Assembly (NCBI RefSeq): GCF_031769215.1
Contig: NW_026781941.1
Span: forward strand, 992,001-1,056,000
Direction: 5' to 3'
DNA: 64,000 bases
Origin: Ylistrum balloti
Lineage: Eukaryota
Shown piece after piece: positions 21,001-64,000 of this stretch. Each line of letters begins with the position of its first letter. Position 1 is the stretch's first letter. The position numbers were made by a program.

Positions 21001-24000
21001 CATCACAATGTACCCCAGTAATCAAGTATGCCAACTGTGAAAACATCAAGGTGTTTACTCCTCTGTGACTGAGAAAACATCGGGTGTTTACTCCTCTTTA
21101 ACAGAGAAAACATCAAGGTGTTTACTCCTCTTTTACAGAGAAAACATCAGGGTGTTTACTCCTCTTTAACAGGGAAAACATCAGGGTGTTTATTCCTCTG
21201 TAGCTGAGAAAATATCAGGATGTTTACTCCTCTTTAACAGGGAAAACATCAGGGTGTTTACTCCTCTGTAACTGAGAAAAAACATCAGGATGTTTACTCC
21301 TCTGTAACTGAGAAAACATCAGGGTGTTTACTCAACTTTAACAGAGAAAACATCGGGTGTTTACTCAACTTTAACAGAGAAAACATCAAGGTGTTTACTC
21401 CTCTTTAACAGAGAAAACATCAAGGTGTTTACTCCTCTTTAACAGAGAAAACAGCGGGTGTTTACTCCTCTTTAACAGAGAAAACATCGGGTGTTTACTC
21501 CTCTTTAACAGAGAAAACACCAGGGTGTTTACTCCTCTTTAACAGGGAAAACATCAGGGTGTTTACTCCTCTGTAACTGAGAAAAAACATCAGGATGTTT
21601 ACTCCTCTGTAGCTGAGAAAACATCAGGGTGTTTACTCAACTTTAACAGAGAAAACATCGGGTGTTTACTCAACTTTAACAGAGAAAACATCAAGGTGTT
21701 TACTCCTCTTTAACAGAGAAAACATCAAGGTGTTTACTCCTCTTTAACAGAGAAAACAGCGGGTGTTTACTCCTCTTTAACAGAGAAAACATCGGGTGTT
21801 TACTCCTCTTTAACAGAGAAAACATCAGGGTGTTTACTCCTCTTTAACAGGGAAAACATCAGGGTGTTTACTCCTCTGTAACTGAGAAAAAACATCAGGA
21901 TGTTTACTCCTCTGTAACTGAGAAAACATCAGGGTGTTTACTCAACTTTAACAGAGAAAACATCGGGTGTTTACTCAACTTTAACAGAGAAAAATCAGAG
22001 AAAACATCAAGGTGTTTACTCCTCTTTAACAGAGAAAACATCAAGGTGTTTACTCCTCTTTAACAGAGAAAACATCAAGGGTGTTTACGGATGTTTACTC
22101 CTTTAACAGAGAAAACATCAGGGTGTTTATTCCTCTTTAACTGGGAAAACATCAGGATATTAACTCCCTCTGAGAAAATATAACAGAGAAAACATCGGGT
22201 GTTTACTCCTCTTTAACAGAGAAAACATCAGAAAACATCAAGGGTGTTTACTCCTCTTTAACTGAGAAAACATCGGGTGTTTACTCCTCTTTAACAGAGA
22301 AAACATCAGAGAAAACATCAGGGTGTTTACTCCTCTTTAACAGGGAAAACATCAGGGTGTTTACTCCTCTTTAACATCAGGATGAGAAAACATCAGGATG
22401 TTTAACTCAGGGTGTTTACTCTTAACAGAGAAAACATCGGGTGTTTACTCCTCTTTAACAGAGAAAACATCGGGTGTTTACTCCTCTTTAACAGAGAAAA
22501 CATCAAGGTGTTTACTCCTCTTTAACAGAGAAAAGATCAAGGTGTTTACTCGTCTTTAACAGAGAAAACATCGGATGTTTACTCCTCTTTAACAGAGAAA
22601 ACATCAGGATGTTTATTCCTCTTTAACTGGGAAAACATCAGGATATTAACTCCTCTGTAGCTGAGAAAATATCAGGGTGTTTACTCCTCTGTAGCTGAGA
22701 AAATATCAGGGTGTTTACTCCTCTGTAACTGAGAAAACATCAGGATATTTACTCCTCTGTAGCTGAGAAAATATCAGGGTGTTTACTCCTCTTTTACAGA
22801 GAAAACATCAAGGTGTTTACTCCTCTGTAACTGAGAAAACATCAGGGTGTTTACTCCTCTGTAACTGAGAAAACATCAGGATATTTACTCCTCTGTAGCT
22901 GAGAAAATATCAGGGTGTTTAGTCCTCTTTAATAGAGAAAACATCCAGGTGTTTAGTCCACTGTAACTGAGAAAACATAAAGGTGTTTACTCCTCATTAA
23001 CAGAGAAAACATAAAGGTGTTTACTCCTCATGAACAGAGAAAACATCAGGGTGTTTACTCCTCTGTAATTGAGAAAACATTGAAAGGTTTTCTCCCCTGG
23101 AACTGAGAAAACATGTGAATAATTATCCCTTGTAACAGAAAACATCATGAGGATGTTTAATTTTCTTTAATCGGGAAAACATGAGATTCACTCCTGTATC
23201 TGAGAAACCATCAGGATATTTACTTCTCTTATTTCATATATATCAGAACTACAGGAGCGTGTTGGGAAGCTGCAGGAGTTGAAGGCAAGCTTACAGAGAC
23301 TACAAGGAGAGACAGATAATATGCTACACCTGAAGGAGAATGGAATCACACAGCTAAACGAGGAGTCCAAGAAAATTCTAAAGGAGAAAGAGTGTAAGTG
23401 AAATAAAAAAGATCCTGTATCCAGTCATCTTAAGTCTTTACTTTTGAACTCTCTCTTTTCTAAAACAAATATCAAGGAGAGTTTTGTTTCATGCATTAAT
23501 TCAAATATCAATGTAGCCCACAATAAAGAGAAGCATTAGTATCTTTAGGGTATCGGTGTGTAAAAGGGAGCCCGGAACATTAGCAATTTCCAATCCCACA
23601 TGAAACGTCTCCCAGAAACCTGGCATATTTAAAGCAATATAGCAACATTGTGCATTGCAGCATATAAAAAACAGGAGGAAGTTTATGTATTGATTTGTAT
23701 TGTATTCAGCACATAGTGATATTGATGGTGAATTTTCATTTTAGTTTTGCCATGCGATGACATTCAGATCACACATTCTCAAAAAATAAAAACCCAAAAG
23801 TCTTGATTTTGCAGATATAACTATATTCCTGTTGTTTCCAGACTTATCCCTGCAGGGGAAGGTAACACAAGAAAAGCTGGTGGAGCTAGACAAGGCAGCC
23901 TCCATGTTCCACACCAGACTTGGATTGACGTTCAAGAAAACCTCAGGTAGGTTGTCTCTCTGTATAATGACCATGGTAACAGTTCTATGTAAGTTTGATC

Positions 24001-63000: not shown

Positions 63001-64000
63001 GCTGTAATAACACATCTAACCAGTCCATACCCAGTTGTGGTAAATCATCTAGCCAGGTCATACCCTGCTATTGTTATTAAAGTCACCTACCCAAGCCCCA
63101 CACTGCTGTGGTAAGACACCCTCCATCAGATAGAGTGACTTTTTGTCAACTTTGTCATTGAACATCAAATTCAAATGTCGCACAATGATTTACATGCAAA
63201 GACAGTACATGTTTTGTTAAAAACAAAGAAGAAACAAAAATGAAAAACTGGCTTTTAAGTATCAAAAGAAAGTCTAGATATGGGTATCTATGTTGATATG
63301 CAATAAAGGGATGTATGTGGTGGTCAGCATTTACAAGAAAAATTAATAGAAAGGTGAATAGATGGTGAGCTTTTGCCATGGCACTGTGTCTGGCATCTGG
63401 TGTCAGTCAACCTTTTAACGAAATATTTTACTAGTCATGAATGACTGCACAGATTTCGAACAAATTTGGTTCTTTGGAGGAGAAGAACCAGGGGCCCAAA
63501 AGGGGAAATTTTACAAATTCTTTAAAATCCCACTCCTCCAGTAGGAATAAATGGATATTTGCCCAAATTTGGTTTGAAACATTCTAAGGTGAAAGGGAAT
63601 CAATCTTGCGTAAACATGAGGTCTCAGCCCCATTGGGCGGAAGGGGCAGGGCCGCATAGGAGCAATAAAGCAAATTATTTAAAATCTTTCTTCTGTAGAT
63701 ATATATATCTCCTAATTAGACCTGAAACTTACATAGGTTAAGAATAAGTAGTGTATAAATGGTGGGTCTGGACCTGTTAAATGATTGAATATCTGAATTA
63801 GTCAGGTAAGCAATGCAGGCCCATTTGGCCTCTTGTACTTGTTTTTTTTTCACCAATTGTTACCAAAATTGAAACCATCAGGTAGATTAATAAAATTGTC
63901 AATCAATAATGCTGTTTAAGATATACATGCCATTACATGTATGCTGTACCATTACGTGTATACTGTACCATTACATGTATGCTGTACCATTACGTGTATG

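What the first reader, a model, noticed from the sequence alone, without database searches (positions are those of the whole stretch)
21033..63115. Recurring theme: minisatellites seeded at splice junctions
Seen: three of seven arrays (34-bp and 32-bp in SPC25, 33-bp in the Star-like gene) derive from or abut their host's splice signals, covering both acceptor and donor sides. The 21-, 27-, 29- and 19-bp arrays show no such link. Inference: this genome may have a general process, such as R-loop or splicing-coupled breaks repaired by slippage, that amplifies junction sequence. That would give heritable, length-variable splice-site arrays and raw material for intron gain by splice-site duplication. 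I know of isolated human examples but not of a described genome-wide system; this is a hypothesis from one window.
Basis: inference. Interest (0 to 1): 0.68.

Follow-up and report, generated by a model that had tools for sequence, protein, structure and literature searches.

The report
Splice-junction minisatellites in scallop genes
In this stretch of scallop genome, two long intronic tandem arrays are copies of their own gene's exon-intron junction and a third runs up to a splice site, a kind of repeat already known from lancelets ("mirages") and a few human genes, so this is a clean new example, not a new system.

Summary
The window is scallop DNA: Star-like exons are 100% identical to a Ylistrum balloti protein. 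All seven arrays exist and make up 11.6% of the window.

- **33-bp array (Star-like):** it starts 14 nt inside exon 2. It repeats the true donor 9-mer 26 more times and ends in a decayed second junction copy.
- **32-bp array (SPC25):** it copies the last-exon acceptor junction (31/33 aligned bases, exact 17-mer, 0/2000 random windows). It lies about 450 bp from that junction. Orthologues as distant as a gastropod keep the exon residues, so the junction came first.
- **34-bp array (SPC25):** it only abuts the exon-3 acceptor. It shows no similarity to the exon (857/2000).
- **Other four arrays:** no link to any junction.

Three links in seven arrays gives a nominal P of 0.0005-0.03, depending on the null. 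This is post hoc, from one window.

The arrays show no G-skew of the kind that favours R-loops. Their structure (higher-order repeats, identical cores, decayed edges) fits ordinary slippage and unequal exchange.

Junction-spanning minisatellites are already described: amphioxus "mirages" on both junction sides, proposed as a source of new introns, and human F7, IFI6, CBS, LMNB2 and PDGF.

Verdict: a real feature and a new member of a known kind. The genome-wide claim is untested.

The parts
19873..26844 (+). SPC25 (kinetochore protein) coding exons mapped exon by exon: 19873-20044, 20534-20599, 23247-23393, 23842-23946, 24987-25088, 26708-26844 (stop). The exon holding the ATG was not mapped.
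   Evidence: tblastn of Pecten, Mizuhopecten, Littorina and one unnamed orthologue against the window. Splice flanks and phase bookkeeping, total 729 nt in frame. Pfam Spindle_Spc25 on the last two exons.
21039..23235 (+). 34-bp array, about 58 copies plus about 5 decayed units, with 305-bp and 102-bp higher-order repeats. It fills 83% of SPC25 intron 2 (20600-23246) and ends 11 nt before the acceptor AG (23245-23246).
   Evidence: There are 25 acceptor-like sites on the sense strand. No similarity to exon 3 (857/2000).
23217..23246 (+). 3' splice region of SPC25 exon 3. The tract TTTACTTCTCTT comes from the last decayed 34-bp unit. The likely branch point (TTTAC) is inferred only.
   Evidence: (11/12 bases, 35/2000).
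25195..26254 (+). 32-bp array, 33.7 copies, in SPC25 intron 5 (25089-26707). The unit is a copy of the last-exon acceptor junction.
   Evidence: Alignment (31/33, 0/2000; 0/3000). There are 23 acceptor-like sites on the sense strand and 0 on the antisense strand.
25179..25200 (+). Decayed junction-like copy (TTTTTCAGGTTAGTTTGAACC) at the 5' edge of the 32-bp array.
   Evidence: score 22, 19/3000.
26255..26695 (+). Spacer between the 32-bp array and its source junction. It is unique in the window and its origin is unexplained.
   Evidence: only one 31-nt match elsewhere; no terminal inverted repeats or target-site duplication; background score against the unit.
26696..26729 (+). Source junction: the last 12 nt of intron 5 plus the first 22 nt of the last SPC25 exon. 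The acceptor AG is at 26706-26707. A second in-frame CAG lies 6 nt downstream.
   Evidence: The exact 17-mer is at 26710-26726.
59801..61701 (+). Star-like (FkbM-type methyltransferase family) exon 1 (59801-60217) and exon 2 (61507-61701). The next exon lies beyond the window.
   Evidence: 100% identity to P0005, Ylistrum balloti LOC132565433. Full-length relatives carry PF05050.
61688..63115 (+). 33-bp array, about 42 copies. The first unit is the last 14 nt of exon 2, the donor GTAAGT (61702-61707) and the next 13 nt of the intron. Layout: five decayed units, 17 near-identical units, an old block (62412-62544), 12 identical units, a repeat of the old block (62941-63072), then the tail.
   Evidence: There are 26 further exact GTGGTAAGT copies and 38 copies of the junction 24-mer.
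63089..63117 (+). Decayed second copy of the exon-2/donor junction at the far end of the 33-bp array. It is 23/29 identical to 61681-61709, including the 13-mer CTGCTGTGGTAAG.
   Evidence: score 28, 1/3000.
13704..13883 (.). 21-bp array in intron 1 of the Rab18-like gene (minus strand), about 115 nt from the exon-2 acceptor. No junction link.
47025..48638 (.). 27-bp array, apparently intergenic. No junction link.
55180..56026 (.). 29-bp array, apparently intergenic. No junction link.
63930..64000 (.). 19-bp array in Star-like intron 2, cut by the end of the window. No junction link.

Best explanation
These are 'mirage'-type minisatellites.

Origin. A short segment spanning an exon-intron boundary was duplicated in tandem. 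It was then amplified inside the intron by the ordinary machinery of minisatellite turnover: replication slippage and unequal exchange, often several units at a time. For the 33-bp array the segment was 14 nt of exon, the donor and the following intron bases. For the 32-bp array it was about 12 nt of intron plus about 22 nt of exon at the acceptor. The exon-side copy stays under coding constraint. The other copies drift or are homogenised as intron.

The 34-bp array has grown up to, or out from, the branch-point and polypyrimidine region of an acceptor. It now supplies part of that signal.

Why the gene survives (inferred). Splice-site choice is positional. The first donor after the exon is used, as shown experimentally for the human F7 array. 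On the acceptor side, the copy that continues into the real exon is used.

What is shown: the arrays, their junction origin, its direction (junction first), and their internal structure.

What is inferred: the mutational mechanism, the splicing outcome, and that no special junction-targeted process is needed.
For: Junction origin:
- 33-bp unit against the Star exon-2 donor window: score 53, 0/3000.
- The 33-bp array is contiguous with the exon and has a second decayed junction copy at its far end (1/3000).
- 32-bp unit against the SPC25 last-exon junction: 31/33 identical, 0/2000. It shares an exact 17-mer with the junction. A decayed junction-like copy sits at its far edge (19/3000).

Direction:
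- The exon residues encoded by the copied stretch are kept in 4 of 4 SPC25 orthologues, including a gastropod (YV/VSDCEPP).
- The Star-like exon end is kept in scallop orthologues (ACLNPKPYPAV|MTF).

Ordinary turnover:
- Higher-order periods of 305, 102, 99 and 104 bp.
- Identical core units with decayed edge units.
- A 130-bp old block occurs twice inside the 33-bp array.
- No positive GC skew.

The public protein model P0005 uses the first donor.

Precedent:
- The human F7 IVS7 37-bp array spans the exon-7 donor and only the most upstream site is used (PMC1557585, abstract and passages).
- Amphioxus mirages do not disturb splicing (PMC3087553 section 16).
Against: - The 32-bp array is not contiguous with its source junction. 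A spacer of about 450 bp is unexplained, and a simple tandem-duplication birth does not predict it.
- For the 34-bp array, no exon sequence is in the unit (857/2000), so junction origin is not shown.
- Three linked arrays out of seven is more than uniform seeding predicts (P 0.0005-0.03). This leaves room for a junction bias that plain slippage does not explain.
- No transcript data were available, so the splicing outcome rests on one public protein model and on analogy.
Confidence: 0.7

Rival explanations
1. A junction-targeted mutational process. Breaks tied to splicing or R-loops are repaired with duplication, so junction sequence is amplified preferentially across this genome.
For: In-window excess: 3 of 7 arrays, or 3 of 5 intronic arrays, are linked to junctions. 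Nominal P is 0.0005-0.03. Both donor and acceptor sides are affected, in two neighbouring genes. The displaced 32-bp array, together with a junction-like relic about 1.5 kb upstream of the source junction, could be a templated insertion at a break. Amphioxus authors also suspected a general phenomenon (PMC3087553).
Against: There is no G-rich skew on the non-template strand of any of the three arrays (-0.03 to -0.16) and GC is low. Only 2 of 14 mapped junctions are actually copied. The statistic is post hoc, from a window picked because it looked striking. The introns without their arrays are short (about 450-560 nt), which by itself puts any array near a junction (conditional null P = 0.015 for 3 of 5).
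Confidence: 0.12
2. The arrays are dispersed, transposon-borne satellite-like repeats of the kind common in bivalves. They landed in these introns, and the likeness to splice signals is a coincidence of T-rich sequence.
For: Bivalve genomes hold many short satellite-like arrays carried by Helentrons and MITEs (PMC7492417 and PMC3879986; search listing and abstract starts only). The 34-bp unit has no exon part. The window holds a MULE ORF and reverse-transcriptase fragments.
Against: The 32-bp and 33-bp units contain 14-22 nt of conserved exon sequence. The 33-bp array is contiguous with its exon. No unit has a long match elsewhere in the window (the longest are 10-12 nt, except the 17-mer at the junction). 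No inverted terminal repeats bracket the 21-, 27- or 29-bp arrays or the spacer. A search with the translated 33-bp array found no related peptide among the 150 best representatives.
Confidence: 0.08
3. The arrays are kept by selection. They might serve as splice-site decoys or regulators. The 33-bp array might be a source of in-frame 11-residue insertions, because its exon frame stays open for 470 codons.
For: The open frame runs from 61507 to 63114. There are 26 exact donor copies, each 33 nt (11 codons) apart. Human IFI6 and CBS arrays do use the first two pseudo-sites (PMC1557585, introduction passages).
Against: A 33-nt unit with no stop stays open by construction. Two of three frames are open. 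The insertion would fall inside the conserved methyltransferase-like domain. The public model and all orthologues join PYPAV directly to MTF. Identical core units point to recent neutral expansion.
Confidence: 0.05

Closest known systems
Amphioxus 'mirages' (Adh3, globins BflGb6 and BflGb9, troponin C, PGBD5)
   Same: They are minisatellite-like tandem duplications that span an exon-intron boundary. Both the 5' and 3' boundaries are affected. Many units keep AG/GT signals. The cluster core evolves in concert and the boundary units are excluded from homogenisation. Regular splicing is not disturbed. They have been proposed as raw material for intron gain (PMC3087553 section 16; PMC3902484 passage).
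   Different: The phylum differs (mollusc, not cephalochordate). The arrays here are much longer (34-58 copies against 2-6 for the globins) and the units are shorter (32-34 bp against 150-160 bp; Adh3 units are 10-72 bp). One array is displaced about 450 bp from its junction. The founding paper (Canestro et al. 2002) is not held and was seen only through citing papers.
Human junction-spanning minisatellites: F7 IVS7 (37 bp), IFI6/6-16, CBS IVS13 (31 bp), LMNB2, PDGF
   Same: The first monomer spans the exon-donor boundary, so the authentic donor is followed by identical pseudo-sites. In F7 only the most upstream site is used, through 5'-to-3' scanning (PMC1557585, abstract and introduction passages). 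The Star-like 33-bp array has this same layout.
   Different: The human arrays have 5-25 repeats. The scallop array has about 42 units, 26 of them with an exact donor copy, and all are in frame. The acceptor-side cases here have no counterpart in that list. No splicing assay exists for the scallop.
Intron gain by tandem duplication across AG/GT (Rogers model; internal gene duplications)
   Same: Duplicated splice signals arise from a tandem duplication that crosses a junction (as cited in PMC3087553; PMC2812944 discussion passages; titles).
   Different: No new intron is seen here. All three introns sit at positions shared with orthologues or paralogues at the protein level. The donor array carries no acceptors, and the acceptor arrays carry no donors except one donor-like site in the 32-bp region.
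Transposon-borne satellite-like arrays of bivalves (Helentron- or MITE-carried)
   Same: They are short arrays scattered through gene-rich DNA of bivalves (PMC7492417, PMC3879986; listing and abstract starts only).
   Different: The units here are local junction sequence, not a dispersed family. No terminal repeats were found.

Membership tests
Mirage / junction-spanning minisatellite: 33-bp array (Star-like) | Head-to-tail array of many units | tested here: met
   About 42 copies with 87-94% matches. Units listed in register.
Mirage / junction-spanning minisatellite: 33-bp array (Star-like) | The unit holds both exon and intron sequence of the adjoining junction | tested here: met
   The unit holds the last 14 nt of exon 2, GTAAGT and the following intron bases. 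12/14 identity in the exon part (11/2000). Whole junction window 0/3000.
Mirage / junction-spanning minisatellite: 33-bp array (Star-like) | The first monomer is the authentic junction, so the array is contiguous with the exon | tested here: met
   TRF places the start at 61688. The exon ends at 61701.
Mirage / junction-spanning minisatellite: 33-bp array (Star-like) | Normal splicing is kept and pseudo-sites stay silent or nearly so | not testable with these tools
   The only evidence is the public protein model P0005, which joins the first donor to the next exon. No RNA data were available.
Mirage / junction-spanning minisatellite: 33-bp array (Star-like) | Length polymorphism between alleles | not testable with these tools
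   Only one haplotype is in hand.
Mirage / junction-spanning minisatellite: 32-bp array (SPC25) | The unit holds both exon and intron sequence of a junction of the host gene | tested here: met
   31/33 identity with a 2-nt gap to 26696-26729, which is 12 nt of intron plus 22 nt of exon (0/2000). An ungapped alternative aligns 26/33 to exon sequence only. The exon part is certain. The intron part is T-rich and less certain.
Mirage / junction-spanning minisatellite: 32-bp array (SPC25) | The array is contiguous with the authentic junction | tested here: not met
   The array ends at 26254 and the junction is at 26707/26708. The spacer is unrelated to the unit and unique in the window.
Mirage / junction-spanning minisatellite: 34-bp array (SPC25) | The unit holds exon sequence of the adjoining junction | tested here: not met
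   Unit against the first 30 nt of exon 3: score 11, 857/2000. The junction 24-mer has 0 copies in the array.
Mirage / junction-spanning minisatellite: 34-bp array (SPC25) | The array reaches the splice signal | tested here: met
   Decayed units run to about 23235. The acceptor AG is at 23245-23246. TTTACTTCTCTT matches the unit at 11/12 bases.
Transposon-borne satellite-like array | The same unit occurs at other, unrelated loci, or the array is bracketed by terminal repeats | tested here: inconclusive
   No further copies in the 64-kb window. No bracketing inverted repeats. The genome outside the window could not be searched.
Introner-like intron-creating element | The intron is absent at that position in relatives, meaning a recent gain | tested here: not met
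   Orthologues break their alignments at the same residues. At least six ORF-type predictions from other contigs read on past PYPA[x] into unrelated sequence at the same position.

The most novel reading that the evidence does not exclude
Scallop genomes, and perhaps highly polymorphic marine invertebrates more widely (amphioxus included), have a real excess of minisatellites born from exon-intron junctions. This would reflect a junction-biased duplication process, for example break repair with short templated copies of nearby junction sequence. Such a process would continually create length-variable banks of identical splice sites. It could shift or create introns and produce in-frame insertion isoforms.
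Probability: 0.2. Interest if true: 0.6.

Novelty: new member of a known kind. Interest (0 to 1): 0.38.

Why it matters
Arrays of identical, fully functional-looking splice sites are natural experiments on how the spliceosome picks one site among many. The Star-like gene offers 26 exact donor copies spaced 33 nt apart and all in frame. SPC25 offers 23-25 acceptor-like copies in each of two introns. Finding 'mirages' in a mollusc shows that they are not an amphioxus or human oddity. If a genome-wide excess were shown, it would point to a junction-biased mutation process and a testable route to intron change. As it stands, the finding is a well-documented new example, useful mainly as a prompt for a cheap genome-wide test.

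Tried and rejected
1. **Does the 34-bp unit contain exon-3 sequence?** No (857/2000; 0 copies of the junction 24-mer). By eye the unit resembled the exon-2 acceptor. In the systematic 7 units x 14 junctions scan that pair did not reach 30/3000. Of 98 pairs, 4 reached it: the two true ones, 34-bp against the exon-4 donor (12/13 bases, 12/3000, not significant over 98 tests), and a TA-rich 29-bp match.
2. **Is the 450-bp spacer a mobile insertion?** There are no other copies in the window, no terminal repeats or target duplication, and it is not decayed array. Unresolved.
3. **Is the 33-bp unit nearly all exon-derived, as it first looked by eye?** Not supported. Similarity stops 14 nt into the exon (1060/2000 for the stretch further upstream).
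4. **Does the array-encoded peptide occur elsewhere?** The 470-residue array ORF was searched against 1.84 billion representatives. There were 668 hits at E <= 0.001. All 150 listed hits were scanned for six motifs: four unit-peptide motifs in two reading frames and two exon-end motifs. None holds a unit peptide. One holds the exon-end pentapeptide PYPAV and is read as chance. The 13 hits I read are unrelated repeat ORFs with a similar period (best identity 49%). This is uninformative about other species.
5. **Is there a same-species SPC25 protein model to check the acceptors?** None came back in two exon searches: 4 hits and 2 hits, best 86-87% identity.
6. **Do terminal inverted repeats flank the 21-, 27- and 29-bp arrays?** None bracket them.
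7. **Do Pfam searches identify ORFs between citrate synthase and Star-like?** 0 of 3 matched. One further ORF at 14652-14996 also gave no match.
8. **R-loop reading:** no G skew.
9. **Literature on a genome-wide junction excess of tandem repeats:** searches found none. The passages read in PMC10078293 do not address it.
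Full report
**What the window is.** It has no N and I do not take it for human. The two Star-like exons are 100% identical to Ylistrum balloti LOC132565433 (P0005), so this is scallop DNA. From left to right the window holds:
- a cytochrome c exon on the minus strand;
- a Rab18-like gene on the minus strand, with exon 1 at about 17579-17640;
- SPC25 on the plus strand (Pfam Spindle_Spc25 on its last two exons);
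- an intact MULE-transposase ORF;
- citrate synthase (6 of 6 ORFs tested match PF00285);
- the Star-like gene, whose full-length relatives carry the FkbM-type domain PF05050.

Spliced models were handled exon by exon only. I did not build or search a joined coding sequence, so no whole-protein check of my SPC25 model was made.

**The arrays.** Together they cover 7,432 of 64,000 bases, or 11.6%. Three show higher-order periods: 305 and 102 bp for the 34-bp array, 99 bp for the 33-bp array and 104 bp for the 27-bp array.

**Junction mapping.**
- I ran tblastn with four SPC25 orthologues (Pecten maximus, Mizuhopecten yessoensis, the gastropod Littorina saxatilis and one unnamed transcript-like protein) and three Star-like proteins. 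Splice flanks and phases were checked.
- SPC25 exons are 19873-20044, 20534-20599, 23247-23393, 23842-23946, 24987-25088 and 26708-26844. They total 729 nt in frame. The ATG exon was not mapped.
- Star-like exons are 59801-60217 and 61507-61701. Its next exon lies beyond the window.
- This gives 14 mapped junctions.

**The 33-bp array (donor side).**
- Exon 2 ends ...CCTGCTGTG at 61701, followed by GTAAGT. TRF starts the array at 61688, so the first unit is 14 nt of exon, the donor and the following intron bases.
- The unit matches the exon's last 14 nt at 12/14 (11/2000 random windows) and nothing further upstream (1060/2000). The whole junction window scores 53 (0/3000).
- Downstream of the true donor there are 26 further exact copies of its 9-mer GTGGTAAGT, and 25 copies of the 12-mer. 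The junction 24-mer has 38 copies with at most 6 mismatches within 2 kb, against 0 in 20 control stretches.
- The array is layered. Five decayed units lie next to the exon. Then come 17 near-identical units, a 130-bp block of old units, 12 identical units, the same old block again, and a tail.
- The tail ends in a decayed second copy of the junction. Positions 63089-63117 are 23/29 identical to 61681-61709, including CTGCTGTGGTAAG (1/3000). This copy reaches further into the exon than the unit does.
- The exon end ACLNPKPYPAV|MTF is kept in scallop orthologues, so the junction is the source and the array the copy.

**The 32-bp array (acceptor side).**
- The unit aligns to 26696-26729, which is 12 nt of intron plus 22 nt of the last exon, at 31/33 with one 2-nt gap (0/2000; 0/3000).
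- The exact 17-mer TCAGATTGTGAACCTCC at 26710-26726 is the only match longer than 12 nt that any of the seven units has outside the arrays.
- All four orthologues read YV|VSDCEPPVP or YI|ISDCEPPVP here. The exon start is therefore ancestral, and the upstream AG (26706-26707) is the acceptor used. A second in-frame CAG lies 6 nt downstream.
- An ungapped alternative aligns the unit at 26/33 to exon sequence alone. The exon part of the unit is certain. The intron part is T-rich and less certain.
- A decayed copy that keeps TTTTTCAG sits at the array's 5' edge (25179-25200; 19/3000).
- The array does not touch its source. Positions 26255-26695 are unrelated to the unit, unique in the window, and lack terminal repeats or a target duplication. 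I cannot explain this spacer.

**The 34-bp array.**
- It fills 83% of intron 2. Its left edge is sharp. About five decayed units lie on the acceptor side, ending 11 nt before the AG at 23245-23246.
- Its last unit gives TTTACTTCTCTT, which is part of the polypyrimidine tract (11/12 bases, 35/2000). By inference it also gives the branch point.
- The unit has no similarity to exon 3 (857/2000), and the junction 24-mer has no copy in the array.
- A 12/13 match to the exon-4 donor (12/3000) is not significant over 98 tests.
- This array abuts a splice signal. Derivation from it is not shown.

**The other four arrays.** None has donor-like or acceptor-like motifs above background. The 27-bp array has 3 acceptor-like sites, and background is about 1 per kb. 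None has a junction match: of the 98 unit-by-junction pairs, only 4 reached 30/3000, as listed under Tried and rejected. None is bracketed by inverted repeats. On the sense strand the three linked arrays carry 27 donor-like sites (33 bp), 25 acceptor-like sites (34 bp) and 23 acceptor-like sites (32 bp). That is 11-21 per kb against about 1 per kb, with almost none on the antisense strand.

**Chance.**
- I assumed uniform seeding of seven arrays over the window with arrays removed, and 30-60 junctions. That count is an estimate: 14 junctions were mapped and the rest were judged from exons seen.
- Under this null, P(at least 3 linked) is 0.0005-0.004.
- With seeding in introns only, P is 0.002-0.03.
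- Conditional on the host introns, which are only about 450-560 nt without their arrays, P is 0.015.
- For the strict count of two junction-derived arrays, P is 0.004-0.18.
- These figures are nominal and post hoc. The window was flagged because it looked striking. The excess is suggestive, not established.

**Mechanism.**
- Nothing points to R-loops. Sense-strand GC skew is -0.03, -0.15 and -0.16 at 37-45% GC.
- The higher-order periods, identical cores, decayed edges and duplicated internal block are the usual marks of slippage and unequal exchange. The amphioxus authors describe the same pattern.
- I therefore read the arrays as ordinary minisatellites whose founding duplication happened to cross a junction.

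**How the genes tolerate the arrays (inferred).**
- In human F7, identical pseudo-donors are functional but silent, because the most upstream site is chosen by 5'-to-3' scanning (PMC1557585, abstract and passages). The public model P0005 also uses the first donor.
- In Star-like, any pseudo-donor would add 11 residues per unit in frame. The frame is open from 61507 to 63114. For a stop-free 33-nt unit this holds by construction.
- In SPC25 intron 5, use of an array acceptor would give (VS)DCEPPV followed by a stop within about three units (ORFs). That product would lack the conserved C-terminal part.

**What is known.**
- Junction-spanning minisatellites are in print.
- The introduction of PMC1557585 lists human F7, IFI6 (6-16), CBS, LMNB2 and PDGF.
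[quoted passage not shown] - PMC3902484 adds troponin C and PGBD5 (passage).
- The founding paper (Canestro et al. 2002) is not held.
- I found no report in molluscs and no genome-wide junction-enrichment test.
- Supplementary files were not seen. The additional files of PMC3087553 hold the mirage alignments and could refine the comparison.

**Verdict.** The kind is already known, so this is a new member in a new phylum. The claimed genome-wide process is untested, and its R-loop form is unsupported.

**What stayed unchecked.**
- Transcripts.
- Polymorphism.
- Why no same-species SPC25 protein came back.

Noticed in passing
window 17579-19873: Exon 1 of the Rab18-like gene (minus strand, about 17579-17640) and the 5' part of SPC25 (plus strand) lie head to head. 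The two genes probably share a bidirectional promoter. A Mizuhopecten SPC25 model aligns with stops at 17772-17930, which may be a 5' exon or an over-extended model.
   Followed up: partly
window 19873-26844: No same-species SPC25 protein was returned in two exon searches (best 86-87% identity), although the neighbouring Star-like protein was. The gene with two large intronic arrays may be missing or mis-modelled in the public annotation.
   Followed up: partly
window 28875-30293 (+): An uninterrupted 472-residue ORF carries a MULE transposase domain (PF10551, E = 1.3e-8). It may be an intact DNA transposon between SPC25 and citrate synthase.
   Followed up: no
window 26705-26713: There are tandem in-frame acceptors (CAG|TTTCAG|) at the last SPC25 exon. 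Orthologues keep the two residues (VS or IS) that the upstream site includes. The 32-bp units keep only the downstream CAG.
   Followed up: partly
window 61507-63114 (+): The Star-like exon-2 reading frame runs open through the whole 33-bp array (535 codons in all). A second frame is open over 254 and 175 codons.
   Followed up: yes
window 46902-48741 (+): The 27-bp array is open in all three forward frames for 560-607 codons, because the T-rich unit has no stop. It would be called as a 'protein' by a naive ORF finder.
   Followed up: no
window 41060-41155: A 35-bp repeat of about 2.5 copies lies inside the last citrate synthase intron, roughly 50 nt after the donor. It does not include the junction.
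   Followed up: partly
window 14256-14996 (-), 32197-32583 (+), 50597-51127 (+), 49004-49596 (-): These look like fragments of retroelement ORFs. The one at 32197-32583 has a weak reverse-transcriptase match. The ORFs at 14652-14996 and 49004-49596 gave no Pfam match, nor did the one at 50597-51127. One lies in Rab18-like intron 1 near the 21-bp array.
   Followed up: no
window 63516-63607 and 56690-56785: A dispersed repeat of about 95 nt (76% identity) is shared between Star-like intron 2 and the intergenic region after the 29-bp array.
   Followed up: no
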